Positions 9,609 through 60,400 of a stretch of 64,000 bases of DNA are shown here, piece by piece; position 1 is the stretch's first letter, and every line of letters starts with the position of its first letter. The notes under the pieces were generated by a model. It was not told the origin of the DNA, did no database searches, and saw only the letters and a program-made list of their open reading frames with translations. The position numbers were made by a program, and so were the translations under genes. Source of the DNA: Naegleria gruberi (taxonomy: Eukaryota). The DNA lies in NCBI GenBank assembly GCA_000004985.1, contig GG738846.1; one strand, given 5' to 3'.

Positions 9609-11932
9609 TTATTTTCCACCACGTTCTTTTGCCTTTTCTTGGGCAATCTTTTCCTTGATTGCATCCCAATTAGTTTCCATTTCTTGATATTGCAAGAATT
9701 CTGGCTTGTTTTCCTCTTGTCCTGTTTCCATCAAATATCTTCTTCTGTAGGCAATTACAGTATCAATATGTAATTTGAACCTCTTTGCCAAATCCAGAGC
9801 TCTGTCCCATTTATACAATTTTATATGCATCTTCACAGCTCTGTAAATTAATCTGGCTTGCAACAGAATGCTCTCTGCTTCATCAATATTTCTCATAAAT
9901 AAGGCAATGGCTGCATTCTTAGCTTCAGCTGAAGGAAGTCTCTTGATATTTGAAATGTATCTTAATTTGTCAACCTCTTCGAGTGCGGCTAACCCAACTT
10001 CAGCAGTATTGAGCTGGTTCAATTTAATTGCCATACCAACCAATGTAGCCCAAATGGCCTTATCTTTAACAAATCTACAAAGACGGATAGCTTGTTCCCA
10101 CTTTTTGTTTTCTATTAATTCATATAAAATTAATGGATATGGATGAACAGATTCTGTAATTACTGCTCCGTCAATTCTTCTAATATTGATCTTGGTATCG
10201 AAAAAGTCTCTAATGATAGATTGCTTTCCAATGTCATCCTTTTCAAACTTGACATAATCAAGCAAATCTCTGTCTACATATACAATCTTTGGATAATAGT
10301 AAACCAATAGCTGTCCTCCAGAAATAACAGACATCAAATCGGATTGGTCATTCCACATTGCAGAATCAACCATTGTTGCCAATTTGAAAACATCTCCTGT
10401 CTTTTTGGCCTGACTAATGTACAAATCTCTATTTCTATCAATAAATGCAATACATCTCTCACTCTTTGGGCCGAACTGGCTTACTTCGACTTGAGTTATT
10501 TCCATGTTATGCACAATCTTATCCAATTCTTTACCATTATTAACATCGAGCAACCTAATTGCTGTTGATTTGGCCTCTCCCTTATCAATGATAGCAATAA
10601 TATCATCGCTAAGACCAACAGCTTGATTATTCAAAAATTCTGTTCTTAAACCAGAGAATTTTGGATTACTCAATAATCTACCTTCATAGTTGTAAATTTG
10701 AATACCACTGAAATTGTCCATAGTAAGGAAGTTGTTTTTTGATTGCAAAATGAGATTGATATTATCCTTTACATCAAAAACATGAGGGGTTCCCAAGTTC
10801 TTGATATCATATACCCAAACTTGGGTCCATGTTGCAACAATTAATTTACCAAATCCTAGAGACCAGTTAATGACCTTATCACGGAACGAAATATCTTCAG
10901 ATCCTTCAGAGACGAGGTCAAAAACTTTAAGAGTAACATCATTTTCTAGCGAGACGAGTAAATTCTTCCATGCCAAGGATTTACCAACAATGTTTCCAAA
11001 ACAAACTCTTCCATTACCACCTCCTGCAGCAATTTGTGTTCCATCACTAGTCCAAGAAATATCTGTAATACTTCCTGTATTTGTTGTGTTTCTAGAGATT
11101 GTCCAACCTGATTTATCACAAATCTTGAGTGTATTGAAAGATCCAACAGCAAACAATTCACCATTAGGGGACCAGGATACACTTGTTATACTGTAATCAA
11201 ATGGAGTACTTGTATATAAAAGTCGTCCAAAATTGTCCCAAACCTTATATTTACCGTCTTCACCTCCACTAACAATCATGTTAGTGAGAGGATTCCAATC
11301 AACTTTGAGAATTTGAGAATCGTGAGCCTTCCATTGTATTTGTTTAGAGGCAACATGGATTGGCTTAATAACCAATTCTCTTCCATTTGTAAATAAAACT
11401 TCCTCACTAGATGGCCCCCAAGTTACTGAATAAACACTCTTTCCGACACTTGCTAGAGTGGATCGGAGCTGGCCACCTCTTGACCAAATTCTCAATACAC
11501 CATCTTCACCTGCGGTCACTAGGGCATTACCTTCATAACTCCAACGAATGGTAACTACGGCACCCTTGTGTGCGTTTGCAACTGTTTTTTCAATTCTTCC
11601 TGTTTTTGACACTAACCTAAATGATCCATCGGCACAACTTATTGCAAAAACATCTGATGTACTTGATGCTAATTTTTTGCTATATGATGGAAACCAGTGC
11701 ATATCGGTAACAATTACATCCAACTCACTCAATTTCGCTATTGGTTCTCCATTTAAATTCCATTTCCAAATAGATTTATCATCAGAAATACTAAATAATT
11801 GATTTTCTCCTCGTGACCATCCAACACAAGTGCAAACTTCCTTGTCTTTATAAATATTTATTGATTTAGAGGGTACAAGCTCAAAACACACTTACGTTGT
11901 TGTGCTGTAGACTCTTGGAGTTGTAGTTTCAT
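9609..11932 (-). CDS. IFT80: Intraflagellar transport protein 80 (IFT-B complex), 2 exons.
   Basis: Aligns along its whole length to IFT80 (N-terminal WD40 propellers plus C-terminal TPR-like region). Examples: CVGWS, WKAHD..ILKVDWNP, GELFAVGSFNTLKICDKSGW, IRLCRFVKDKAIWATL, IDTVIAYRRRYL. The true start is a 37-nt upstream exon at 11932..11896 (MKLQLQESTAQQ), joined through a 50-nt intron 11895..11846 (GTAAGT..AAAG). The ORF-track M at 11891 is a GTG codon. Confidence 0.85.
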
Positions 11933-12043: not shown

Positions 12044-14679
12044 TTAAAGATAATCTGTGCCCATCGATGATTCTGTATTGTCATTATCATTAACTTCGGT
12101 CCTATTCATATTTTCTCTCATGTTATTGATAGATATTTCACAAAGACGATAGAGTTGGAAGGTTGCTTGGTCAATTGTGCCTGTTTGAGTTTGCTCATTG
12201 ATGATGGTATTTAATAAATCTCTTGCCTCCTCAAATTTACTATCTTCAAATAATTGGTGAGCTCCGTTATATTCATCCCATTTGTGTTTTTTCGTTTTCT
12301 CATGCAATTCATACATCCACTTTATAAAAACAATGAATAACATTTGAGATTAATAATACTTACCTCTTGGTCCTGTTGAATTATCTTCTCCTCTCCAACT
12401 TCATACAAGTTGTAAATTTCCTCTTCCCTTCCTTCCGTATTTAGGCAAGTGTTTGAAAAACTTGTTTGGCTATTGAGTAGAAAAACATTTCCAATAAATC
12501 TGTGATAGTACTTTTCACTAGTGGCCTTTTTGAAATATTCTGGAACAGTCATCTTGATATCTAATTCAACACAAATATCATTCATCTTTCGAATGGTTTC
12601 CATTACATGATCAGTATTAAAAGGAGTGAAAATAGTTGGTGTGGCAAGACCACATAATAACTTTTGTTGAAACGTCACCATTCTAAACTTGATTGGATGT
12701 TTGATTTTGATCTTTTCTAATTGATCTAAAAAGAAATAATTGTTAGAGATGATCTTATCAATTGGGAAAGTATTAGTGGCAAAATTATAAAAGAGACCAA
12801 TAACATTAGTAGAGAGAAATCCAGCCTTACACCCCTTCTGACTACACATTGTTGTTATCTTTTCACAACATTCCAATAAAAAGTGAATAGCTTCTCCCAT
12901 ATTTGAGGTGGCAACTTGATCAAGTCCTTCAAGTGAGACGCCAACACATATAACTTCTCTTTCTTCAATCACTTGTTGGTGTCTCTTCTTGTTGGCAAAT
13001 TTAAAGCTATTGGAGAGGAAAGATCCAATTCCTTCCTTATTTTGGGTTTTGGCGAATTGTTGGGAGGATTTCAAATCAATTGATTTGTTAATGGACAAAT
13101 CGGATTCATACTTGACAATGGGATTTTTCTGAATAAATGATTGATTATTACTCTGTGGACTCACCAACCTTCCAATCATTTCTCTTAAAAACTTGAATTC
13201 GTGGAGATTTCTCACGAGAGGTGTTTTTAAATTCTTCTTTCTTGGAACTCCATTAAAACTTTCCTTGATACCATACGTTTCGTCAACCATTTGAAAAATC
13301 TCATTAAGCGGCCTCAAAAAGAGCCAAATAAATGTAATTGAAAGAATAGCCAATACAATAAATAATATCAAGTTGGCTGCTAAGGTTATTAGCATTGGTG
13401 AAACGAGAGAACTTGTCAAACTGCTTGTTGGTATGGAGGTCACAAGGATTAAATCCAGTCTTTCACCTAAGCACATTCTCTTCATAAACAGGGTTTGGAT
13501 ACTATCAGCATCCTCTACTATTATCTGTTGGGAGCATTCTGTTGGCTTTGATTTCTTAATTTTCTCTATTTGAGTACTGGAAAAGTCAAATTTAGCACCA
13601 AGAACAGAGGTTGAGTTTGTATCCATGAGCATTATATTTCCATTAACTGAATAGTACATTGTTGGTACAAGAGCCTTTGCACACAGTCTATTCAAACTTA
13701 GATCCATTGCAAAGTAGTAAAAGTTAGACTTGGAATCTATCCACTTTTTTAACAGTCTAACAGTATTTCTTTCAGATACAAGTCCAACTATTTGAATTGA
13801 TTGAAAATTATCCCTCACTAGAGTATTCTCAATTCTTAACTCTGTATTAGAAAATGTTTTCGAAGAACCCATCTCACATTCACTCTTACTTGTCCAATCT
13901 TGACAAAAAGTTAGGGAATTGAGGGATTGGGATGAATTCATCATGTATAATTCTCCACCATAATAAAAAACTCCAACCTTATTTCCAAAAGCATCTCCAA
14001 TATAAATAGAACTAACGAGATCTAACTCCTTTTCAACTATTGCCTTGAATACTCCAAAAAAATTAAACTCTCCATTTTTCAAATCACTAATAGAATCATT
14101 AATCAAAATCTTCAATTGGCTAGTGACAGACTCCGATAATATAAGCATGTTATTAAGAGTGTTTTCAATATTTTTCTCTGAATTCAAAGAATCGAGTATT
14201 ACTATCTTGTTATTTGTATTTTTCAAAGTCAATCCAAAGGAGACTATCCACGAACAAGTCAACAAAATAAATAATAGAAATAATATAAAGCAAAACACAA
14301 CACTCAGCCAACATTTGACTGTTTGTTTCGATTGAAGCCATATAATACATTCTCCCTCAGAATTTTCCTTATTTTCTTCACCCATTGATGTATTCTCTTC
14401 TTCAGTTTCTTCATTGTTCGATTCTGGTGTTAGTACTCTTCGCGATATTTCAATAGACTGTTGTATTTCGGGTTGATGTTTTGCAGAGTTGACCATTTCA
14501 TTAGCAATATTCTTGTGATCGTTGGGGGAGGCATTTAAATTCGCAAAGACAGGTTCAGGTATTTCTCTATTCGAAAGAGAGAGCGAGAGTCGTCTAGATT
14601 TCGTTGAGGAAATACTGTGAGAGCTATTAGATGAGGTAAAGGGCATTACCAGAGTTGATGATATTGTACTGGGCTGCAT
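12044..14679 (-). CDS. Receptor-like type-I/II membrane protein (863 aa, 2 exons). It has a large extracellular domain between two TM helices and a cytoplasmic domain resembling a degenerate class-III nucleotidyl-cyclase homology domain.
   Basis: Exons are 14679..12364 and 12319..12044, with a 44-nt intron 12363..12320 (GTAAGT..AAAG, phase 0). TM1 is CWLSVVFCFILFLLFILLTCSWIV and TM2 is LITLAANLILFIVLAILSITFIWLF. The cytoplasmic segment VICVGVSLEGLDQ...STNVIGLFYN...FRMVTFQQKLLCGLATP...VMETIRKMN loosely follows the cyclase-homology-domain pattern but lacks the canonical metal-binding Asp residues. Confidence 0.5.
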
Positions 14680-14964
14680 ATTACAAGCAAGTTGGAATGA
14701 AATGGTGATAGAACGACCTTTTTTTGATCTATTTCTGAGGTGTACTGATATCTCTTTTCAATAAACTTCAAGAATTTAAAATAGGTAGACTATACTTTTT
14801 GTATTGAATAATTGTAATTTACAATTTCTTATTTTCAAAAACTGACTCTGAAATTATTGGTACAAAATCTTCGGCCTTATATAATTTGTGTTCGTTAATA
14901 TATTTCTCAACCTTATCGTGAACATAGTATTTTACAGAGTTGTTTCTTCGAACCAATTGTCTAA
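13874..14964. repeat. Copy A of a segmental duplication (1091 bp). Its partner is 19783..20496.
   Basis: 13874..14361 is near-identical to 19783..20270 (1 mismatch seen: A at 13949 vs C). 14739..14964 is identical to 20271..20496. The ORF-track pairs 14045..14335 = 19954..20244 and the shared 160-aa stretch in ORFs 12322..14679 and 19740..20303 confirm this. Confidence 0.9.
14739..14964 (-). pseudogene. Duplicated 3' fragment of the NMNAT gene (last ~49 codons plus 3' UTR), displaced next to the 5' end of the 12044..14679 gene.
   Basis: Identical to 20271..20496, which is the authentic NMNAT C-terminus and 3' UTR. There is no upstream NMNAT coding sequence here. Confidence 0.7.
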
Positions 14965-15624
14965 TTCATGTTGGTGTGGGTGTAATTAAGTTGGGGGGCT
15001 ACGTGCAGTTAAGAACAACTAGATCAGATGCTCTATTCAGTCTGTGTAAAGTTACTTTTGGTTGCAACGAAGGAATGGAATTTTCTAATTATTTTGAGCG
15101 TATCTGTCTAGAATCTACAGTGAGACCTTTTCCAAGATTAAATAAAACAACTTTGGATAATTTAATAACAATTATTCCTTCGTCCCAATTAATATCAATC
15201 TCAAAAAGAGGAAATTCCAATGGATTTCTATGTATCATCAAGTTGTGTCAATCCTCCCAACATTATTTATTGAGATAATCAATGGGTTCCAGATCTTGTA
15301 AAAAGCACTAATATGACAACACTTTCCCCAAAAAATGAATGACTGAATTAACAATCATAGACAAAACCCCAAATTAGAAATTTGTTACAGTAACTTTTAT
15401 TTGAATTCAGTAGATTCACAAGAAGAGATCTCAGAAGGAGACTTGATAGAAAAATTATTGAAAATGTACATTATGTATTACCAATCTCAAACCTTTGGAA
15501 AAATTTAGTGATACTATAAGATGCATTACATCCTTCTTGATTATTCACAAAATGTGATGTTTTCGTTTTTTTTTCCTAAAATTTTACAACGAAAGTGCGC
15601 ACCAATCAAATTACTGGCGTAACA

Positions 15625-15658
15625 TTAATTGCGTCAAAAAGTGTTTTGACGCAATTAA
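15625..15658. promoter_or_regulatory. Perfect 15-bp inverted repeat (TTAATTGCGTCAAAA agtg TTTTGACGCAATTAA) ending 5 bp before the ATG of the F-box/LRR gene. It could be a 5'-UTR hairpin or a bZIP-type palindromic site (ATTGCGTCA half-sites).
   Basis: Read directly from the sequence at 15625..15639 and 15644..15658. Confidence 0.35.
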
Positions 15659-15662
15659 AAAA

Positions 15663-17318
15663 ATGTTTGGACGCAAACACATTAGAGAAAATAGGCAGAA
15701 CAGCACAACTATACCTTTTGGTGGCGCACTTCCAACAATAATTTCTTTTCTTGATCAAAAATCATTTCTGTCTTTTGTTGGTGTTTGTAGTTACATCCGA
15801 TATTTTGTAGAATCAATGAAAATAACTAAAGAGTTTGATTCTAACAAAAGGAATGTACATGCCGTTTATTTAGCAACGAGACAATTAAATTTTGAAAAAG
15901 TTTCCTTCCACAAACTGTTCACCAAATTATCATTCACAAAAGTCTCTGTTTCCAAAAATCAAATGAACCTATTATTAACATCCAACAAAGTAGATAGTCT
16001 CACATTTAGATCTTCACAAGTATCACTCCCTAATTCACTCCCTAACATCATATCCACAATTTCCAAACTTGTTTTAGAAAATATGGTAATTGATGTTGGT
16101 AAAATAGGGAACGTATTCAATAACATTAAGCATATGTCTTTTAAAAAAGTTGGTTTTAATTGGAACTTGATGGAGCAATTTTTAAAATTGAAGTTTAATT
16201 GTTTAGAAAGTTTATATTTTAGAGATGATGAATTGGATACTGATTGCATCAATATTTTTTTTATGAGCAGGAACTTTAAAACTCTAAAATCTATTACGTT
16301 CAAGAGTTATTGTTTAAACTATATTGCCAAAATCAACAAAGATAACTTCCCACATCTAGAAAAATTTACCTTGAAATCACGTTACAAAAATGATGAAAAT
16401 ATTATAAATATATTAGAAAGTCAGTTAGATCTGAAAGAATTATATACCTATACTACACTATCAGAAGAGATAATCTCAAGCTTGTTGAAAAATCCTAATT
16501 TAAATATTATTAATATGATAGCACCAAGCATTTTTGAACAGGCGCAGATAGACGAGAAGCTTTTTTTTTTGTTAATGAGTAGACTAAAATGCTTAACTGA
16601 AATTTCTTTAATAATACCATCTAATCTTGTGCCCATTTTAACTGCAAACACTAATGCACAAAAGATAGCAATTAATACATCATCAATTCCAGCTATTCAA
16701 ACGCCATTATTCAACTTTCAATCAATCCTTCGGATATTAGAATTGCATAATACTTCATTACTAGATATTGATTGTGTTGCCATAAGCTCCTCCAATATTA
16801 AGGAACTTAAGATGGTTAGCTGTAATTTCATTGGTGAAGGATATACTAATATCGCAAACATGACTCAACTAAAGGTTCTTTCACTTAACCGCTTGCTCTT
16901 CCCAACGACAATAATTGATCCATTCCACATTTTTTTGGGTGGTTCATTAATTTCACTGGAGAAGTTTGAATACACTTCATTGCACTTCAGAAACGACTTT
17001 TGTTTACCAAACGACCTAGTTAACCTTCCCAAATTGACATTTTTTGAAACCTGTTCTCCTACTTATATTGATTTGCAGAAACTTTTACAAAATTCTAAAG
17101 TAGCTACATTAGATCTTTCTTTTGAGTTTTTTTTGAATTTCGAGTTCTTGGACAACCTCTTAACTAAAAATCATTCCATTACCCAGCTAATACTACCACC
17201 AAAGGCCGAAGAAAGGTTCAAAGATCAAAGAAAATCATACCTCAAACAAATATCTAGAATTCAAAAACTGTTCAATATTCAAGTTTCATTTAGCAAACAT
17301 ATGCTTGTGTTTGAATAA
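15663..17318 (+). CDS. F-box / leucine-rich-repeat protein.
   Basis: The N-terminus LPTIISFLDQKSFLSFVGVCSYIRYFVES fits the F-box consensus (LP.e.l..I...L....L.....VC..W). The rest is an irregular Leu/Asn-rich LRR-like region. The ORF is 551 aa, with an in-frame stop upstream of the ATG. Confidence 0.5.
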   Translation: MFGRKHIRENRQNSTTIPFGGALPTIISFLDQKSFLSFVGVCSYIRYFVESMKITKEFDSNKRNVHAVYLATRQLNFEKVSFHKLFTKLSFTKVSVSKNQMNLLLTSNKVDSLTFRSSQVSLPNSLPNIISTISKLVLENMVIDVGKIGNVFNNIKHMSFKKVGFNWNLMEQFLKLKFNCLESLYFRDDELDTDCINIFFMSRNFKTLKSITFKSYCLNYIAKINKDNFPHLEKFTLKSRYKNDENIINILESQLDLKELYTYTTLSEEIISSLLKNPNLNIINMIAPSIFEQAQIDEKLFFLLMSRLKCLTEISLIIPSNLVPILTANTNAQKIAINTSSIPAIQTPLFNFQSILRILELHNTSLLDIDCVAISSSNIKELKMVSCNFIGEGYTNIANMTQLKVLSLNRLLFPTTIIDPFHIFLGGSLISLEKFEYTSLHFRNDFCLPNDLVNLPKLTFFETCSPTYIDLQKLLQNSKVATLDLSFEFFLNFEFLDNLLTKNHSITQLILPPKAEERFKDQRKSYLKQISRIQKLFNIQVSFSKHMLVFE

Positions 17319-17346
17319 AATGTTAAAATAACATGCTTTGTCTTAT

Positions 17347-17913
17347 TTATTGATGTTTTTGAATTTTACCAGATACTGACTTTCTAAATAACTTCCTAAC
17401 GAATATCTTAAGAATAATAGTTAACAAAATAACAATAAAGAGCAAAGGATATCCAAAAACGAAAGGGAAAAGAGCATAATATTGGTGGAAGTTAATAGTT
17501 AAATCCTTGGCATGTAAAAAACTGGTCAAAATAATCACCGAGCCAAAATGAAGCAAAACACCAACAAAAACAAGGATTCTAAAAACCAACAAAAAACCCT
17601 CATATCTTTCTTTCTTAATCAATTTTGTTGCATTATAATTCATAAAATCTACGTTAAGTATTACGTCAATGAAAGTAATAAAGGCAGAATAAGTTGTAAT
17701 TTTTACCGCATTACCAAAAATCTGTGAAGTTATTTCAGAGACCACCCTTAAAGAGATGTACGAATCATTGATATCATTACTGGTATTTTTGATTGCAAGT
17801 TGCTTGTTAGTAGGTACGGTTATGAAATAAAATGCTAAACTCATGAACAGACCAAATGTAAGGTTAAACCAAACAGTGATTTGGGCTTCTCTATCCTTAG
17901 CCATAGTGTCCAA
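17347..17913 (-). CDS. Small polytopic membrane protein (188 aa, about 4 TM helices). Function unknown.
   Basis: ORF with alternating hydrophobic segments (FGLFMSLAFYFITV, ILVFVGVLLHFGSVIILTSFL, LFPFVFGYPLLFIVILLTIILKIFV). Confidence 0.35.
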   Translation of the reverse strand: MDTMAKDREAQITVWFNLTFGLFMSLAFYFITVPTNKQLAIKNTSNDINDSYISLRVVSEITSQIFGNAVKITTYSAFITFIDVILNVDFMNYNATKLIKKERYEGFLLVFRILVFVGVLLHFGSVIILTSFLHAKDLTINFHQYYALFPFVFGYPLLFIVILLTIILKIFVRKLFRKSVSGKIQKHQ

Positions 17914-18080
17914 ATTTTTTTTGATATCTTTGTTTTTTGACTCATATTTCGCCTTTAACTCTCTGAGTATTTTCAGAGTTGGTGGTGGTCCCCATAAATA
18001 TTTAAAAAATTGAAGACTTGCACCAAAACTTTTATAGTCTTTGCCATCACTCTCGCCATCACGCTTGTAGCCTGAAGGAT

Positions 18081-18565
18081 AATTACTGTAAAACCTGGTG
18101 CGTAAGACTCATTACTGCGTAAGACTTTCTATTTAAAAAAAATGACAAAATCATAATCGTGTGCCAACGACATCAACGAAAAAACAAACCAACAATCGAA
18201 TAAACAAATTATTCCAATTCTTATAGAGGGTTGTATTTATTATTTATCTAATTTCCTACCACCAACAAAAACACCAGTTTGCGCAATTAAAAAATCAACT
18301 TGAAACAATTCCGCAAAGTGAGCTTTCGAACCTGCAAAACCGAATTTTTGAATAATCTATTTGATGCTGATATTGGTGATTCACATCCCAATATATATTC
18401 TATATTATAATTCTATTCTACTGATGGTTTTGCAATAACAGATTGTGATCTTGCAGAAACAACAACAATTAAAATTTGCGAGCGTGTGGGTTCTCTCTTT
18501 TTTTTTTGTTGCCGAGAAAAGGTTTTCCCGAGCTAAAGTCTTACGCACCAGGTTTTACAGTAATT
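18081..18565. mobile_element. Non-autonomous foldback / MITE-like element. It has 29-bp terminal inverted repeats (AATTACTGTAAAACCTGGTGCGTAAGACT) flanking about 427 bp of AT-rich non-coding DNA.
   Basis: The left TIR at 18081..18109 is the exact reverse complement of 18537..18565. The left end also carries a partial tandem copy (cattactgcgtaagacttt, 18110..18129) matching the extended right end aaagtcttacgc. No clean TSD is visible. Confidence 0.4.
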
Positions 18566-19272
18566 CCTTGTTCCAAAAAAAGTTTTTGCGGAACTTCTTT
18601 AGAGGAAAAATAATAGTCATGCCTTAGCTCTGAGGGTTGTCTTTCATATTTTTTCAAAAACTTGCTGTATTCCTCAAGGTCTTCTTTTAATTCTACCAAA
18701 TTTTTGATGATACTTAGGAATAGTTTTTGCCTTTTGGGTGGTAGTTCGTTTGTGGGAATATTTGTATAGCCCTGGATTTTGGTAGGAAAATCATAAAAAA
18801 AGGAAAACGAGTCTACAACACCACCAAAAGAAGCACAACAGTTTTCTAAGTGCTCTCCGAGAAGCAAATAATCTTCTAATAACTTGGCAGCTTTTTGTTC
18901 ATTTTTTCTGCGATTGAGATCTTAATCCCTTAAATTCTATGTTTATTAGGAGTAGAATGAGGGTTCTATCCTTAATTGAGTGAAAATTCTTAAAAGATGA
19001 ATTGTGAATTATGAAAAGTAAGTGAAATTTATTAAGCGACATTGATCCATCCTCGGACATTTGGCTTGTGTAATTTGATTGTAATGGTAGAATACACGAG
19101 GATTGATGACAAAAGCAAGTTGAGTGCAAAAAGTTCTTGCTTCAATACCAAAAATGTTGTGGTATTTGATACACCAAGGATAATCTACCCATAGATCAGA
19201 GATAAACAGTTCTTGATGTAAACAAAGAAATTTTTCCATCACCATTTTCAATCCTCTATCCTTCAAATACAC
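18541..19272 (-). pseudogene. Degenerate minus-strand ORFs with no ATG, probably exon remnants of an unknown gene. The last ORF reads through into the right TIR of the adjacent element.
   Basis: ORFs 19009..19272, 18899..19129 and 18541..18867 lie in different frames. The 18541..18867 frame is open upstream to a TAA and has no in-frame ATG. A possible acceptor (aatcgcag) is at 18894. The ORF ends EQGITVKPGA*, which is encoded by TIR sequence. Confidence 0.25.
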
Positions 19273-19782
19273 TTATTGGAATCCCCTCCAAAAACCAAAT
19301 ATTAAAACGAAGAGCTGATAGATACAAAACCACTGTGACTGGTTTAATAAAAAAAATGAACCATCTGTTGACCAGTCAAAAGATAAAGGGATATTTGGCT
19401 TTGTACAATATTTTAATGGCTGTTGTTTTGTGTTTAGGCTTCCGATGCTACCGTTTACTACTAAATGCTTACTAAGGTATGTTTTACACTATCGCTTAAT
19501 CCTAGAAATGAAGTGACTTTTCGGAACCCTTGTCTTAATCGGGATGGAGTTAGTAACAGATCCAGCCATCATTGTTGATAATGTTACAAATTATGGTTGC
19601 AAGAATGGTACTAAACCTTCATCTGAAGAGTACACCAGTGTAGCCGTGCAAACAATGTTACTTGATTATTTGAGATGCGTTTTTTGTCTTTTTACTCTTC
19701 CTGCCACTTTTATTTGGTATTCTTATTATTTTCAGGATACTAATACCTCAGACAATTACCATCCAGCAACAGGATCTGCATT

Positions 19783-20270
19783 TCACATTCACTCTTACTT
19801 GTCCAATCTTGACAAAAAGTTAGGGAATTGAGGGATTGGGATGAATTCATCATGTATACTTCTCCACCATAATAAAAAACTCCAACCTTATTTCCAAAAG
19901 CATCTCCAATATAAATAGAACTAACGAGATCTAACTCCTTTTCAACTATTGCCTTGAATACTCCAAAAAAATTAAACTCTCCATTTTTCAAATCACTAAT
20001 AGAATCATTAATCAAAATCTTCAATTGGCTAGTGACAGACTCCGATAATATAAGCATGTTATTAAGAGTGTTTTCAATATTTTTCTCTGAATTCAAAGAA
20101 TCGAGTATTACTATCTTGTTATTTGTATTTTTCAAAGTCAATCCAAAGGAGACTATCCACGAACAAGTCAACAAAATAAATAATAGAAATAATATAAAGC
20201 AAAACACAACACTCAGCCAACATTTGACTGTTTGTTTCGATTGAAGCCATATAATACATTCTCCCTCAGA
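19783..20270 (-). pseudogene. Internal fragment (about 160 codons covering TM1 and the start of the extracellular domain) of the 12044..14679 membrane-protein gene. It lacks both the start and the 3' two-thirds.
   Basis: ORF 19740..20303 has 160 aa identical to residues ~108-270 of ORF 12322..14679. Its 5' end (MKFIEKRYQYTS) is read from NMNAT 3'-UTR sequence. Confidence 0.7.
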
Positions 20271-20496
20271 GGTGTACTGATATCTCTTTTCAATAAACTT
20301 CAAGAATTTAAAATAGGTAGACTATACTTTTTGTATTGAATAATTGTAATTTACAATTTCTTATTTTCAAAAACTGACTCTGAAATTATTGGTACAAAAT
20401 CTTCGGCCTTATATAATTTGTGTTCGTTAATATATTTCTCAACCTTATCGTGAACATAGTATTTTACAGAGTTGTTTCTTCGAACCAATTGTCTAA
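19783..20496. repeat. Copy B of the segmental duplication (714 bp). It equals copy A with an internal 377-bp deletion (A 14362..14738).
   Basis: See copy A. The junction is ctccctcaga|ggtgtactga, with 1-2 bp of microhomology. Confidence 0.9.
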
Positions 20497-21322: not shown

Positions 21323-23080
21323 CTATTCATTAATTTCTACTCTCGTAAGTGAAACCTGGTATTTAATTCCCTCAAAATCAAAGAAAGTCTTAGTAGCAGT
21401 TTGGGTGAGGTGATGAGCTCCCTTACAACCACTCACTCTAACAATAACCTTGAGATTGCTATTCTTTTTACCTTCAACATTGGTTTTTAGTGCTGAGCTG
21501 GTTGCACTTGCATTCTTTGCAACTTTGAAAGGAACACTCAAACCACCAATTACGGAACCGTTGTTGGCAGTAACTAATATTCTATAATAATTATGTTTAA
21601 CGTGCCAATCACTATGATTGTTGGATGTGGTAATACTACAATTATATGAAATCTTGTTTGAGTCGTCGCTAATGTCAGAATCATTGATCTTCAAGAGCTC
21701 ATTTCCTGATGGATCATTTGAAAGCATACAATGGACTGAGGTGGTTGAGTCCAATGACCCATCTACATCAGTAATTCTTTCAATTTCTTTCAAGTTATCT
21801 CCTCTATCCTTACTAGAACAAGATAAGACCACTAAATCAATTTTGCTAACATCAAAATCATCAGGACAATTGACAGCCTCAACAACAACAGTAAACTTGG
21901 CAGAATCGGATGTGTCATTTACCATATTCTTTCCTTCATAATAGAATGCTGGTTTACAGGCAGGAACTATTCCTAAACCCAATCCTTTGCACTGTGCAGG
22001 CATTTTAAGTCTGACATTTAAGAAACCACCAGAGTAGACATATCTAATATCTCCTTCAGCAACTGGAGTACCATTTGAGCTCAATGATTTGTCCTTCTTG
22101 CTTCCAATCTTTTTGGATGACTTTCTCTTTGATTCTCTTTCAGTATTGTGTGCTGATTTGGAAGGTGACTCCATCTTCTTCTTCTTTTGAGGCTTTGTTT
22201 CGGCAACCTTCTTTTTGGAAGTCTTCGTTGAAGTCTTTCTCTTCTTTACTTCCATGTAATCAAAATCAGAGCTGTCATCAGAAGTGGTCGAGCAGTGATC
22301 GTAGAAGCTATCGTTCCCATCTTCACTTGGCTCATCCGTCTCTTCGTCATAAACTATTGGATTACTTGTTGTATTCATCATTGAAATCTCATTTTCCTCT
22401 TTAATAATGGAGGCTTGATAAAGAGGAGTTGCAAGTAAGGATTCGCTTACTGGTGAGGACTGCAATAATTGATCACCAGCATCTCCCTCAACAAGAACCT
22501 CCTCAGTTGAGAAAAGATGAGGACAAATGGTTTGATAAATGTTATTCTTGATATTCAACTCTGACTCATCTTGAGTTGTTGAAGAAGAAGAGGTGATTGT
22601 TGCTGGTCTGAACAACTTTCTCTGTGAACTTGAAACACTTTTCAAGTCATTGAGAGTTGAGCAGTTGGTGGTACCATTCAATTCCTGGGAGTATTCCTCC
22701 TCTGAGAAGATGGTATGTTGAATTTCGTGCATAGAACCATTCTCAATAGTAGTGGCAGAAGTTGTCTTAATAGGAACCATTAACATATTACTACCCTCAC
22801 CCAAGATGGTGTCGTGGTCATAACTCATGTGGTGAGCAGTGAGAGTGGATGAGTGACTGATCAGCATTGAGCCTTCATTGGGAAAATCATCTGATTCCTC
22901 AGTCATATCCCACATTTGAACGAGTGAATGATTGAGGAGGTGATCTTGTTGCTGGTGGCCCTCGTCTTCATCCATATGGGAAACAGTGTCGAAAATTGAT
23001 AATTGATCATATGGATTCACTTCATTATCAGAAATATCTGATTCAAACTCAAAAGGAGAAAGTGGAAGACGTTCACTCAT
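21323..23080 (-). CDS. Nuclear regulatory-type protein (585 aa). It has an acidic N-terminus, an S-rich middle, a lysine-rich NLS-like cluster and a beta-rich C-terminal ~250-aa domain. Possibly a DNA-binding transcription factor.
   Basis: Long ORF with typical codon usage. D/E-rich N-terminus (DEDEGHQQQDH). KKRKTSTKTSKKKVAETKPQKKKK basic cluster. C-terminal globular region with RVSGCKG. No family confidently recognised. Confidence 0.4.
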   Translation of the reverse strand: MSERLPLSPFEFESDISDNEVNPYDQLSIFDTVSHMDEDEGHQQQDHLLNHSLVQMWDMTEESDDFPNEGSMLISHSSTLTAHHMSYDHDTILGEGSNMLMVPIKTTSATTIENGSMHEIQHTIFSEEEYSQELNGTTNCSTLNDLKSVSSSQRKLFRPATITSSSSTTQDESELNIKNNIYQTICPHLFSTEEVLVEGDAGDQLLQSSPVSESLLATPLYQASIIKEENEISMMNTTSNPIVYDEETDEPSEDGNDSFYDHCSTTSDDSSDFDYMEVKKRKTSTKTSKKKVAETKPQKKKKMESPSKSAHNTERESKRKSSKKIGSKKDKSLSSNGTPVAEGDIRYVYSGGFLNVRLKMPAQCKGLGLGIVPACKPAFYYEGKNMVNDTSDSAKFTVVVEAVNCPDDFDVSKIDLVVLSCSSKDRGDNLKEIERITDVDGSLDSTTSVHCMLSNDPSGNELLKINDSDISDDSNKISYNCSITTSNNHSDWHVKHNYYRILVTANNGSVIGGLSVPFKVAKNASATSSALKTNVEGKKNSNLKVIVRVSGCKGAHHLTQTATKTFFDFEGIKYQVSLTRVEINE

Positions 23081-57437: not shown

Positions 57438-60400
57438 TTACACCTTATAACCAATTCTATTCTCCAACCACAAGTTTCTTGCCATTTCTGCAGATGGTCT
57501 TCTTTCATAATTCTTATCCAACATGATCATTACAAAATCAATAATGGCATTCACATCAATGGTTTGACCATTCACTATCACAGTATTATTATTACTTGGG
57601 GTAGCTAATAAGTTTTGACTACTTCCACTATTTGCACTGAGTGGCAAGTTACCAGCATTCAACGATTCCATAAAGGCCAAAGTCAATCTCTCTCTAATTT
57701 CCTTACCACCATTGAGGATAGAAATTCTTACAGTAGTTTGGAAATCTCTTGTTATCATGATATAAAATACACATCCCAATCCATAGATATCAGTTTTAGA
57801 TACATCTTTCACTTCACCAGCAAATAATTCTGGACTTTGGAACAATTCTGTACCAACAATACTTGTTTTTGTAATTACATTTTCAATATCTCCCTTTGCT
57901 AATCCAAAATCTGATAGAACAACATGATCTTGTGATTTTAAAAGGAAGTTTTCTGGTTTGATATCTCTGTGATAGACTTGTCTCTGATGAATATATTCAA
58001 TACTTGATAACATTTGTCGCATATAATTCAAAATTCTATTAATTGGTAAATTAGATTTCAAATTCAATAAATAAGATTGGAAATCACCCATTTCTAAAAA
58101 TGGCATTGTAAAACACCATTTTTCAAAATTACCAATATTAGTTTCAAATATTTCATAGACAGGTAAAATATTTTCATGATTCAATTTGGACATTTGAATA
58201 AATTCAACATTATTTCCCTCTTCTCTTGGTAAAATCTTCAAGGCAAGTATCTTTTTATCTTCACTCTGTAAATCACAAACTTTGAAAACACTTCCAAAAC
58301 CACCAAAACCAATCTTTTTCAATACTTCATATCTATTGATTAGAACATTCTTCTTGGTCTTTTTAACTTGATTTCCATTATTAGAAGTACTACTCTTCTT
58401 AATATTATTATACAATTTGACTAGATTTGAGATTTCTGTATTATCAGAGAGTGGTTTGATAAAGTAATTATAAATTAAATCTAGATTTGACTTTTCAAAT
58501 ATGAGTTTAAAGTATTCTTCAACATTTGGAATGGAGTTTTTGAGTTTTGGTAAAAGATTTGCATTAGAGAATAATCTAACATTGATAAAATCGGTCCACT
58601 TTTCATAAAATCTATTATGATTACCATTATAATTTGTAACTGACATTGGTAAAAAGTAAATATTAACAAATTTGGTATAGTCAATATTTGAAATTTCTTG
58701 TAAATAGTTTGCCATATACTCAAATATGGTAATCTTCATTTCAGTATCAAGTATTGTTGAAAATGATGCTAAACATAAACATTCCAAATAAATATTGGAA
58801 TTAAAATTATACTTTCTGATATATTTTAAAAATTCAAAAATATCCAACACTCTCTTCTTATGGAATGGTCTAAACATTTCAATTTCGGAAACCAATGGAT
58901 TGATACATTGTAATTTATCAAATTCTCCATTAAGTGTTGAATTAATCATACTTAATATAATGTTAATAGTTTCTTGATTATTTTCAGAGATGGAGAGCAT
59001 TTCTGTAAAGAGATTGTCATTATTACAAGACCAATAAATGATCAAGTAGAAGAATGTATAAATTTTCTTTCTTAATTCCATTGAATTGGTATATAATTGT
59101 TCACTCTTTGGTTTAGTTTCCATTTCTTTCAAATACTTTTTACAATCGGCCATTAATTGAATATCAGAGTTGAGTAAAATTGGACCAAATTGACAAAGTT
59201 GATAAAATAAATTAATAATAACTGGAGTACTCAACTCATTATTGACAATGATAGTATTTTCAAATAATCTACCAATTTGAACCAATAGTGGAATGTAATT
59301 CTTATCTTTCTGAATATTCTCCTTAATGAGAGGTATGGTAATTTTAATGAGAATAGAATTGATAAGATTAACATTAAATGTTTGGAAACATTTGGATTTG
59401 AGAATGTTTGAATATACATTGAATTTTTCAGTTTGTGAAATTTCAATTTCGAATAGGTTCTTTAAGAATGCTTCAAACTCTTCATAGGTCAGAATTTCAA
59501 ATAAAATATCAAATACAGAGACAGTGAGTGATTTCATCAAATTACCCTTCACAACAGCAACATTTGGTAAGTTGGTTGCATTGAGGTTTAGAATGAGTAG
59601 TAATTTAGAAACGAGTGAATTAAATTGTTCTTTAAATTCAATAATTTCTTTGGTTTGCTTTGTTTGCTTCTTCTTTTCCTGTTGGGAACTATTCTTCTTT
59701 TTCAACATGATCATAACAAGTGAGAATGATTGAATGGCATGATAAATAGTCTTGTAGTGGATTTCATTATTAGAAATTGAAGTAGAGTTATTCTTTGAAA
59801 TCATTGAGAGAGTATTTAACGATTCTTGTAATCTATCATTGAGATAGATTAAAACAGATTGATAAACTTTTTCATTAATTGGAATCTTGTAAATGATTTG
59901 TTCAAATAATAGTTCAGAATTTTTAAAATATTGACCAATGAAATAGAATAGAGATTCCAAAGTCTTCAATCGAATATGTGGATCATCAAAGTAAAATTCC
60001 AAAATTGAAAACAATGAAATGAATAACCCATTTGCATGTAAAACACATTCCTTATAGGTAATCTTCTTTTTTACAACTTCAATCAATTCAAGTATTGAAA
60101 TATTCTTGATAATGAATTGCTTCCACAGGAAGAATATTTGTAAATAGTTGTTATGCGGTATTGTTGAAATGAAGAATGTAAAACTCATTTTGATATTATT
60201 CTTTTCAGGTTTTGATTTCTTCAATTCAGGTAAAATACTTAAAATATTAGCTCTCGATGATAAATTACCATATAAAGTATTGGATGAATTCTTTTGTGGC
60301 TTGTATAGTTCAATAAGTTTCAATTTTTCAAAATTCATAATTGATTCATTATCTGTAAACTTGTAAAAACCAACAAGTGCTGGTTCATCTTCAATTTCAT

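What the first reader, a model, noticed from the sequence alone, without database searches (positions are those of the whole stretch)
18081..18565. ~485-bp element with 29-bp perfect terminal inverted repeats (MITE/foldback-like) inside the duplication-bracketed segment
AATTACTGTAAAACCTGGTGCGTAAGACT at 18081..18109 is exactly reverse-complementary to 18537..18565. It encloses about 427 bp of AT-rich non-coding DNA. The left end carries an extra partial TIR copy. A minus-strand ORF (18541..18867) reads straight through into the right TIR, which suggests the element inserted into, or captured, older coding sequence. A 29-bp perfect inverted repeat is extremely unlikely by chance in 64 kb. This may mark a DNA-transposon family not described for this lineage.
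Basis: seen in the sequence. Interest (0 to 1): 0.5.

Follow-up and report, generated by a model that had tools for sequence, protein, structure and literature searches.

The report
Small transposon-like insert splitting a Naegleria gene
A 475-bp non-coding DNA segment with perfect inverted ends sits inside an orphan, probably decaying gene of the amoeba Naegleria gruberi, and a second strain keeps only a 34-nt stump at the same spot, so it is most likely an ordinary small cut-and-paste transposon (MITE), although no second copy could be found with the data available.

Summary
Positions 18081-18109 and 18537-18565 form a perfect 29-nt inverted repeat, against 13-17 nt at most in composition-matched simulations. 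They enclose 427 nt with no coding capacity.

The window is Naegleria gruberi. The element interrupts a minus-strand ORF, and both flanking ORFs run right up to it. Only one target-duplication model restores one continuous 371-codon frame: TA|CTGTAAAACC…GGTTTTACAG|TA, 475 + 2 = 477 nt.

An ENA metagenome contig (L003) is 99.5-99.8% identical to the window. At this site it carries only a 34-nt remnant. The remnant keeps both termini, lacks 450 nt including the whole interior, and has a 2-nt microhomology at the junction. It is a deletion derivative or footprint, not an empty site.

Best reading: a young non-autonomous TIR transposon (Stowaway/Tc1-mariner-like MITE) inserted in a decaying orphan gene whose 3' ORF is annotated as NAEGRDRAFT_62004.

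Copy number, the decisive test, could not be obtained. There is no other copy in the window, the JGI metagenomes, IMG/VR or the protein collections, and the genome itself was not searchable.

The TIRs also carry an orientation-independent GTAAGA…ACAG pair that would splice to an in-frame 18-nt scar. This introner-like reading has only weak support.

Interest is modest.

The parts
18081..18109 (.). Left arm of the perfect 29-nt inverted repeat (AATTACTGTAAAACCTGGTGCGTAAGACT). Under the preferred model, AAT (18081-18083) is flank, TA (18084-18085) is one copy of the target duplication, and the TIR proper is 18086-18109.
18537..18565 (.). Right arm of the inverted repeat. The TIR proper is 18537-18560, the second TA copy is 18561-18562, and the flank ATT is 18563-18565. 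On the minus strand this arm contains the stop codon (TAA, 18543-18541) of the upstream host ORF and the candidate donor GC|GTAAGA (G at 18544).
18110..18126 (+). Sub-terminal partial TIR copy, CATTACTGCGTAAGACT. It has the half-sites ATTACTG + CGTAAGACT with the 12 nt between them missing. It is present at the left end only.
18127..18536 (.). Non-coding interior, 31.9% GC. It has no ORF longer than 47 aa, no match elsewhere in the window, and no Rfam family or tRNA.
18566..18921 (-). Upstream part of the interrupted host ORF (…LEDYLLLGEHLENCC…KLFLEQG). It is unannotated in the reference, has no in-frame ATG and has no homologues.
17347..18080 (-). Downstream part of the host ORF (NYPSGYKRDGESDG… then a multi-pass membrane C-terminus). 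It is open from the element boundary. Only its last 185 codons (from the ATG at 17904) are annotated, as NAEGRDRAFT_62004.
18087..18536 (.). The 450 nt that are absent from the second allele (ENA contig L003). Placement is ambiguous by 2 nt because of AC microhomology, so the interval could equally be 18089-18538. One G of the GG at 18548-18549 is also missing there.

Best explanation
This is a non-autonomous cut-and-paste DNA transposon of MITE type: 475 bp, with perfect 24-nt TIRs (5'-CTGTAAAACCTGGTGCGTAAGACT) and no coding capacity. It inserted at a TA inside the palindromic target AAT-TA-ATT and duplicated the TA.

The insertion split a lineage-specific Naegleria gruberi ORF (about 371 codons) that encodes a predicted multi-pass membrane protein. 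That ORF also lacks a recognisable start and appears to be decaying.

The perfect arms indicate a recent insertion. In a second strain or haplotype, the element later lost its interior and most of one arm. This happened either by transposase-initiated excision followed by abortive template-directed gap repair, or by spontaneous microhomology-mediated deletion. It left a 34-nt stump that frameshifts the ORF.

Shown: the structure, the insertion into an ORF, the compatible TA duplication, and the polymorphism.

Inferred: transposase dependence, superfamily (Tc1/mariner-like, from the TA duplication), and that the full element is ancestral to the stump.
For: 1. The 29-nt IR is perfect, against at most 13-17 nt in simulations, and no comparable IR exists in the 64 kb.

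2. Both flanking ORFs on the minus strand abut the element. The upstream ORF is open over 18921..18566 and stops 7 codons into the TIR. The downstream ORF is open from inside the left arm (18108) to 17347, which is 60 codons upstream of the annotated ATG.

3. Three direct-repeat boundary models are possible (TA, AT, AATT). Only TA (475 + 2 = 477 nt) restores one continuous frame, …LFLEQGINYPSGYKRD….

4. The size, the lack of ORFs, and a terminal stem that dominates the fold (-134.5 kcal/mol against -98.7 ± 5.6 for shuffles, z = -6.4) all fit a MITE.

5. The second allele, L003, is 99.5-99.8% identical in the flanks. In place of the 485 nt it has AATTACTGTAAAACCTG-TGCGTAAGAC|AGTAATT. Both termini are kept, 450 nt are lost, and the junction has AC microhomology. 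This pattern is typical of internally deleted derivatives of cut-and-paste elements (established knowledge for P, Ac/Ds and mariner).

6. Polarity: the stump has a single G where both arms of the full element have the matching GG/CC. Deriving the full element from the stump would also require inserting DNA that ends in a 22-nt inverted copy of the adjacent sequence. The full element is therefore the older state (inference).

7. Naegleria genomes do carry DNA transposons at a low level (PMC6125883; PMC12344493).
Against: No second copy was found anywhere:
- none in the 64-kb window, even at 3 mismatches or with sensitive blastn;
- none in the JGI metagenomes;
- only chance 17-mer hits in IMG/VR;
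- no gene model or ORF call in 5.8 billion proteins reads through a copy.

No empty site was observed. The only other allele still contains TIR sequence.

The TA duplication cannot be separated from the palindrome, because AATTA/TAATT is part of the perfect IR.

The sub-terminal partial copy includes ATTA. That argues these bases belong to the element rather than to the target.

Frame restoration has a 1-in-3 chance of being coincidence.

The terminus CTGT… is not the CAGT/CAGG terminus typical of Tc1/mariner (own knowledge).

No transposase partner was identified.
Confidence: 0.6

Rival explanations
1. It is a one-off local rearrangement and not a mobile element. A double-strand break in the ORF was repaired with about 450 nt of filler DNA plus a fold-back or template-switch copy of adjacent sequence, which created the inverted repeat. 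The L003 allele is an independent deletion prone to occur at hairpin-forming DNA.
For: It is single-copy in everything that could be searched. The IR can be extended by 4 more nt (AAGG/CCTT) across a 2-nt bulge into what would be host sequence. The left end shows a further local rearrangement, the partial TIR copy. The surrounding 6 kb is itself rearranged and duplicated.
Against: The insert has clean boundaries, symmetric and perfect 24-29-nt termini, and a compatible TA duplication that restores the frame exactly. Filler-DNA events do not normally produce perfect terminal inverted repeats at both ends of the insert. The searches that came back negative did not include the genome itself.
Confidence: 0.2
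2. It is an introner-like element, a MITE that is removed from the transcript as an intron. Because the TIRs are perfect, either orientation presents the same donor 16 nt inside the element (GC|GTAAGA) and the same acceptor at its last base (TTTTACAG|). Splicing would leave 16 nt + the 2-nt TA = 18 nt, here six extra codons (TVKPGA), so the host ORF would stay intact.
For: The intron 18086..18544 (459 nt) is GT-AG and in frame. The 18-nt scar is a multiple of three whatever the insertion phase, and it is stop-free in two of three phases. The genome has a spliceosome: a PRP1/Prp6 homologue is in the window, and many short GT-AG introns are present.
Against: Native introns in this window are 37-80 nt. 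Their donors are GTAAGT, GTATGT or GTGAGT in 15 of 15 cases, always with T at +6, and their acceptors are mostly TAG (10 of 15; CAG once). The median Naegleria intron is 80 bp (PMC6125883). The candidate is 459 nt with off-consensus GTAAGA and CAG.

The reference annotation does not splice it and calls only the downstream ORF. The upstream ORF has no start codon and is preceded by in-frame stops. In L003 the stump frameshifts the ORF, and both SNPs in the downstream ORF are non-synonymous, which suggests the gene is not under constraint. No transcript-derived protein matches a spliced product.
Confidence: 0.08
3. The 34-nt form in L003 is the ancestral state and the 485-nt form in the window is derived from it. 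The site would then never have been an insertion of a complete TIR element.
For: Only two alleles are known and there is no outgroup, because the host gene has no homologues.
Against: It requires a pre-existing 9-nt terminal palindrome (AATTACTGT…ACAGTAATT) by chance. It also requires insertion of DNA ending in a 22-nt exact inverted copy of the neighbouring bases, and a concordant G/C gain in both arms. The reverse path needs only one 450-nt deletion at a 2-nt microhomology plus a 1-nt loss.
Confidence: 0.04

Closest known systems
Stowaway-like / Tc1-mariner-derived MITEs
   Same: It is small (475 bp) and non-coding, with short perfect TIRs, a fold dominated by the terminal stem, a compatible TA target duplication, and an insertion in or near a gene.
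   Different: Only one copy is known so far, whereas MITE families are defined by many copies. The terminus is CTGT…, not the CAGT/CAGG (Tc1/mariner/pogo) or CTCCCTCC (plant Stowaway) termini recalled from the literature. No related transposase has been identified in Naegleria.
Internally deleted derivatives and excision footprints of cut-and-paste elements (P/KP, Ac/Ds, mariner; abortive gap repair)
   Same: The L003 allele retains both element termini (about 23 nt of one end and about 4 nt of the other, inside the two TA copies), joined at a 2-nt microhomology.
   Different: Canonical Tc1/mariner footprints are only 2-5 nt. No transposase source or sister-copy template has been shown, and a transposase-independent deletion at a hairpin-forming repeat would look the same.
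Introner elements (Micromonas, Aureococcus, fungi and others; own knowledge of Huff et al. 2016 and Gozashti et al. 2022)
   Same: It is a TIR element sitting inside coding sequence, with splice-like signals at its ends and a remainder of 3n nucleotides after hypothetical splicing.
   Different: Introners are recognised as many near-identical introns in unrelated genes with demonstrated splicing. Here there is one copy, off-consensus splice sites, a length about 6 times the native median, and no evidence of splicing. Searches of the paper library for Naegleria with 'introner' returned only three papers that mention both terms in passing (by title and term counts; not read).
Foldback (FB) elements
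   Same: It has terminal inverted repeats and hairpin potential.
   Different: FB elements have long TIRs made of tandem sub-repeats that occupy most of the element. Here the TIRs are 24-29 nt, about 6% of each end, and are not repetitive.

Membership tests
MITE (structural class) | Length under about 800 bp with no coding capacity | tested here: met
   475-485 bp. The longest internal ORF is 47 aa. There are no Pfam or protein hits.
MITE (structural class) | Terminal inverted repeats | tested here: met
   29/29 nt perfect, or 24 nt if the TA and flank are excluded.
MITE (structural class) | Target-site duplication flanking the TIRs | tested here: inconclusive
   TA, AT and AATT are all formally possible because the outer 5 nt are palindromic. 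Only TA restores the host frame. No empty site is available.
MITE (structural class) | Multiple dispersed copies in the genome | not testable with these tools
   The N. gruberi assembly cannot be searched by DNA. There is one copy in the 64 kb, and none in the JGI metagenomes, IMG/VR or the protein collections.
Tc1/mariner superfamily (as the mobilising family) | TA target-site duplication | tested here: inconclusive
   It is compatible and restores the frame, but it is embedded in the palindrome AATTA…TAATT, and the internal partial TIR copy also carries ATTA.
Tc1/mariner superfamily (as the mobilising family) | An autonomous relative with the same TIRs that encodes a DD(E/D) transposase | not testable with these tools
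   This requires a genome-wide search for the TIR.
Introner elements | Element boundaries coincide with functional splice sites and the element is spliced from mRNA | tested here: inconclusive
   An in-frame GT-AG pair exists inside the TIRs. It is off-consensus and 459 nt long, against native introns of 37-80 nt. The reference annotation does not splice it. No RNA data are available.
Introner elements | Many near-identical copies forming introns of unrelated genes | not testable with these tools
   This has the same limitation as the MITE copy-number test.
Foldback elements | Long TIRs composed of tandem sub-repeats that make up most of the element | tested here: not met
   The arms are 29 nt of 485 and the interior is unique.

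The most novel reading that the evidence does not exclude
The element belongs to a so far undescribed Naegleria family of 'splice-ready' MITEs. Its perfect TIRs place a donor (GTAAGA) 16 nt inside the upstream end and an acceptor (ACAG) at the last base of the downstream end, in either orientation. Any insertion into an exon could then be spliced out, leaving an 18-nt in-frame scar (16 nt + the TA duplication). That would be an introner-type mechanism of intron gain in Heterolobosea, a lineage where none has been reported.
Probability: 0.07. Interest if true: 0.75.

Novelty: new member of a known kind. Interest (0 to 1): 0.33.

Why it matters
Naegleria genomes are gene-dense and repeat-poor, and most of their repeats are unclassified. 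A young TIR element caught inside an ORF, with a deletion derivative in a second strain, would be direct evidence of recent cut-and-paste transposon activity in N. gruberi. It would also provide a TIR sequence with which to find the autonomous partner.

In practical terms, it explains why NAEGRDRAFT_62004 is annotated as a short 185-aa orphan: it is the 3' fragment of a larger disrupted ORF.

If the splice-site arrangement in the TIRs proved functional, it would extend transposon-driven intron gain to Discoba. The present evidence for that is weak.

Tried and rejected
1. More copies by DNA:
- The 24-nt TIR at up to 3 mismatches and a 15-mer at up to 3 mismatches gave only the two arms plus one chance hit in the window.
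- Word-7 blastn of the element against the window gave nothing beyond itself.
- The 20-mer against the JGI metagenomes gave 0 hits.
- The 17-mer against IMG/VR gave two hits whose flanks do not match, so they are chance.

2. More copies through proteins: a six-frame peptide concatenate of the element against 5.8 billion proteins gave no hit.

3. More alleles:
- Exact look-ups of NMNAT, the 551-aa ORF, IFT80 (P0001), P0121, and the 108-aa and 87-aa ORFs were not on record.
- The 95-aa ORF returned the same ENA contig.
- tblastn-confirmed scans of the JGI metagenomes with the host protein gave none.

4. Host-gene homologues that might show an uninterrupted site: none by word-index search or Pfam. 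The full HMMER search returned only the two self fragments.

5. RNA families and tRNAs in the window: none. This rejects a SINE, tRNA-derived element or structured-RNA reading.

6. Literature on Naegleria MITEs, introners or Tc1/mariner: nothing specific. The accession PRJEB11402 is not mentioned in the library.

7. AT and AATT duplication models: rejected as the preferred model because they leave the ORF out of frame.

8. De Bruijn assembly artefact as the cause of the L003 junction: rejected by reasoning. The IR (29 nt) is far shorter than k = 127, and a collapsed IR node cannot join the upstream flank plus one arm directly to the downstream flank.

Full report
**Observation**

The reported structure is present exactly as described. 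Positions 18081-18109 (AATTACTGTAAAACCTGGTGCGTAAGACT) and 18537-18565 are 29/29 complementary, with 427 nt between them. It is the only inverted repeat of this quality in the 64 kb. In 40 composition-matched (first-order Markov) simulations the longest perfect inverted repeat with arms up to 3 kb apart was 13-17 nt. The 24-nt core has no expected chance matches even at 3 mismatches.

The 'extra partial TIR copy' is 18110-18126 (CATTACTGCGTAAGACT). It is the arm's two half-sites, ATTACTG and CGTAAGACT, with the intervening 12 nt missing, and it occurs at the left end only.

The interior has no ORF above 47 aa, no Rfam family and no tRNA. At 31.9% GC it is no more AT-rich than the window as a whole, which is 32.5%.

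**Organism and context**

The window is gene-dense, with long uninterrupted ORFs. These include IFT80, PPR proteins, a PRP1/Prp6 splicing factor, VPS15, Sir2 and NMNAT. The IFT80 ORF is 100% identical to NAEGRDRAFT_77945 of Naegleria gruberi on a 1.0-Mb scaffold, and the next-best named relative is Willaertia magna at 80%.

Native introns inferred in the window are short (37-80 nt). Their donors are GTAAGT, GTATGT or GTGAGT in 15 of 15 cases. Their acceptors are mostly TAG (10 of 15), with CAG once. This agrees with the 80-bp median intron reported for N. lovaniensis (PMC6125883).

Naegleria genomes are repeat-poor. N. lovaniensis has about 3.4% repeats and about 1% DNA transposons. In N. gruberi only a small fraction of repeats could be classified (PMC12344493).

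**The element interrupts an ORF**

On the minus strand an ORF is open from 18921 to a TAA at 18543-18541, seven codons inside the right arm. A second ORF in a compatible frame is open from 18108, inside the left arm, to 17347. Any deletion of 3n nucleotides fuses them.

Three direct-repeat boundary models are allowed by the sequence: TA, AT and AATT. Only TA|CTGTAAAACC…GGTTTTACAG|TA (475 + 2 = 477 nt) is 3n. It yields an empty site GGAATTAATTATCC and a continuous protein …KLFLEQGINYPSGYKRDGESDG…, 371 codons from stop to stop. The inferred target, AAT-TA-ATT, is an 8-bp palindrome.

The downstream ORF stays open for 60 codons upstream of its annotated ATG, right up to the element. That is the expected pattern if a formerly continuous ORF was split.

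The host protein has no Pfam domain and no homologue. The exhaustive HMMER search returned only two fragments of the same locus. One of them, P0121, is the reference gene model NAEGRDRAFT_62004 (XP_002682934.1, 'predicted protein', 185 aa). It begins at an internal ATG downstream of the element. The reference annotation therefore neither joins the two ORFs nor treats the element as an intron.

The upstream ORF has no in-frame ATG. A further ORF (19272..19009) lies in the same frame but is separated from it by about 90 nt containing four stops and no consensus donor. The host looks like a decaying gene.

**A second allele**

The other HMMER hit, P0122 (128 aa), reads …LEQGITVKP-VRKTVIILQATSVMARVMAKTI. 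This is the upstream ORF running through one arm and straight into DNA downstream of the element, in a shifted frame. It is encoded on a 5,034-bp ENA metagenome contig, locus L003 (ERZ929261 / ERR1078381 / PRJEB11402, k127_59190). That contig is 99.5-99.8% identical to the window (12 differences in about 5 kb). It therefore comes from another N. gruberi strain or haplotype.

Between the same flanks L003 has 34 nt, AATTACTGTAAAACCTG-TGCGTAAGAC|AGTAATT, in place of 485 nt:
- Window 18087-18536 is absent (450 nt: the whole interior, the partial copy and most of the left arm).
- The junction carries a 2-nt AC microhomology.
- One G of the retained arm is missing.
- Both outer termini are kept (AATTACTGT / ACAGTAATT).

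The stump is 26 nt longer than the inferred empty site and so frameshifts the ORF.

The junction is not an assembly artefact, for two reasons (reasoning, not a computation). The repeat (29 nt) is much shorter than the assembly k-mer (127). A collapsed inverted-repeat node also cannot connect the upstream flank plus one arm directly to the downstream flank.

On polarity, deriving the stump from the full element needs one microhomology-mediated deletion plus a 1-nt loss. The reverse needs a pre-existing 9-nt terminal palindrome, an insertion ending in a 22-nt inverted copy of the neighbouring bases, and a concordant G/C gain in both arms. I therefore take the full element as the older state. L003 is an internally deleted derivative or footprint, not an empty site.

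**Best explanation (confidence about 0.6)**

This is a young, non-autonomous cut-and-paste transposon of MITE type that inserted at a TA in a palindromic target inside a lineage-specific ORF. In another strain it subsequently lost its interior.

Retention of both termini joined at a microhomology is the classic outcome of excision followed by abortive template-directed gap repair in P, Ac/Ds and mariner systems (established knowledge). A transposase-independent deletion at a hairpin-forming repeat would look the same, so the stump shows instability rather than proving mobility.

The TA duplication points to a Tc1/mariner-type transposase, and three caveats apply:
- The TA is embedded in the palindrome AATTA…TAATT.
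- The internal partial copy also carries ATTA.
- The terminus CTGT is not the usual CAGT/CAGG.

**What is missing**

The defining property of a transposon family, more than one copy, could not be tested. The N. gruberi assembly is not searchable by DNA with these tools and is not in the exact-match contig index.

All indirect routes were negative:
- the window itself;
- the JGI metagenomes, by TIR and by host protein;
- IMG/VR, which gave only chance 17-mers;
- a six-frame peptide query of the element against 5.8 billion proteins;
- exact look-ups with neighbouring ORFs.

These nulls are weak, because none of the collections holds the genome's non-coding DNA.

**Rivals**

(a) A one-off repair or fold-back event (about 0.2). 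It is favoured by the single copy, by a 4-nt extension of the IR (AAGG/CCTT) across a 2-nt bulge, and by the generally rearranged neighbourhood. It is disfavoured by the clean symmetric termini and the frame-restoring TA.

(b) An introner-like, spliced MITE (about 0.08). Because the arms are perfect, both orientations present the donor GC|GTAAGA 16 nt inside the element and the acceptor TTTTACAG| at its last base. The resulting 459-nt GT-AG intron (18086..18544) is in frame. It would always leave 16 + 2 = 18 nt, here TVKPGA, and the scar is stop-free in two of three phases. This is an attractive design, but several points weigh against it:
- The sites are off the very tight native consensus.
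- The length is about 6 times the native median.
- The annotation does not splice it.
- The host ORF lacks a start.
- The other allele is frameshifted, and both of its SNPs in the downstream ORF are non-synonymous.

(c) The stump is ancestral (about 0.04). This is rejected on parsimony, as set out above.

**Comparison with known systems**

Structurally the element meets the MITE criteria of size, TIRs and lack of coding capacity. The TSD criterion is inconclusive and the copy-number criterion is untestable here.

It is not a foldback element, because its TIRs are short and non-repetitive. It cannot be filed as an introner.

I rate it a probable new member of a known kind (a TIR MITE) in a lineage whose transposons are poorly catalogued. 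Interest is modest (0.33). It would rise only if RNA-seq showed splicing at the TIR-borne sites.

Noticed in passing
window 13870-14964 vs 19779-20496; locus L003 1-5034: The 'duplication-bracketed segment' has the order A(13870-14964) - U(14965-19778) - A'(19779-20496). A' lacks the 377 nt at 14362-14733, and the shared parts are 99-100% identical. The ENA contig L003 is a circular permutation of this unit: U(17239→14965) - full A - U(19778→17663). In the repeat it carries copy-2 diagnostic bases but has copy-1 left context. This means either a tandem amplification or circle of a ~5.9-kb unit in the other strain, or a chimeric MEGAHIT path through the 492-bp repeat.
   Followed up: partly
window 19740-20303 (-) and 14819-14964: The duplication created gene fragments. 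ORF 19740..20303 is a truncated paralogue of residues ~107-280 of the 785-aa ORF at 12322..14679. A copy of the 3' end of the NMNAT gene (20351-20496) sits at 14819-14964. In L003 the truncated paralogue is fused to the full N-terminus, giving a 271-aa gene call.
   Followed up: partly
window 17347-19272 (-): The host of the element looks like a decaying gene. Three same-frame ORF segments (19272..19009, 18921..18566, 18085..17347) are separated by a ~90-nt stretch with four stops and by the element. The ATG at 18901 is out of frame by one base in both strains. Only the last 185 codons are annotated (NAEGRDRAFT_62004). Both SNPs between strains in the downstream ORF are non-synonymous (window 18032 K→I, 17822 I→K).
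   Followed up: partly
window 11702-11891 (-): The reference IFT80 model NAEGRDRAFT_77945 starts at the ATG at 11702. Homologues from many eukaryotes align about 50 codons further upstream (to ~11840-11858), and the ORF is open to 11891 without an ATG. The annotated N-terminus is therefore probably truncated. A simple mini-exon model (ATG at 11932 plus a 50-nt GTAAGT intron) did not keep the frame.
   Followed up: partly
window 58821-58843 / 59909-59931: This is the only other inverted repeat of 20 nt or more in the window: 23 nt, 87% complementary, arms 1,065 nt apart. It is made almost entirely of A/T in the most AT-rich part of the window (26% GC) and is probably low-complexity chance.
   Followed up: no
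window 12322-14679 (-), 15663-17318 (+), 21323-23080 (-): Several long ORFs around the element (785, 551 and 585 aa) have no Pfam domain at E<=0.01. The neighbourhood is rich in lineage-specific orphan genes.
   Followed up: no
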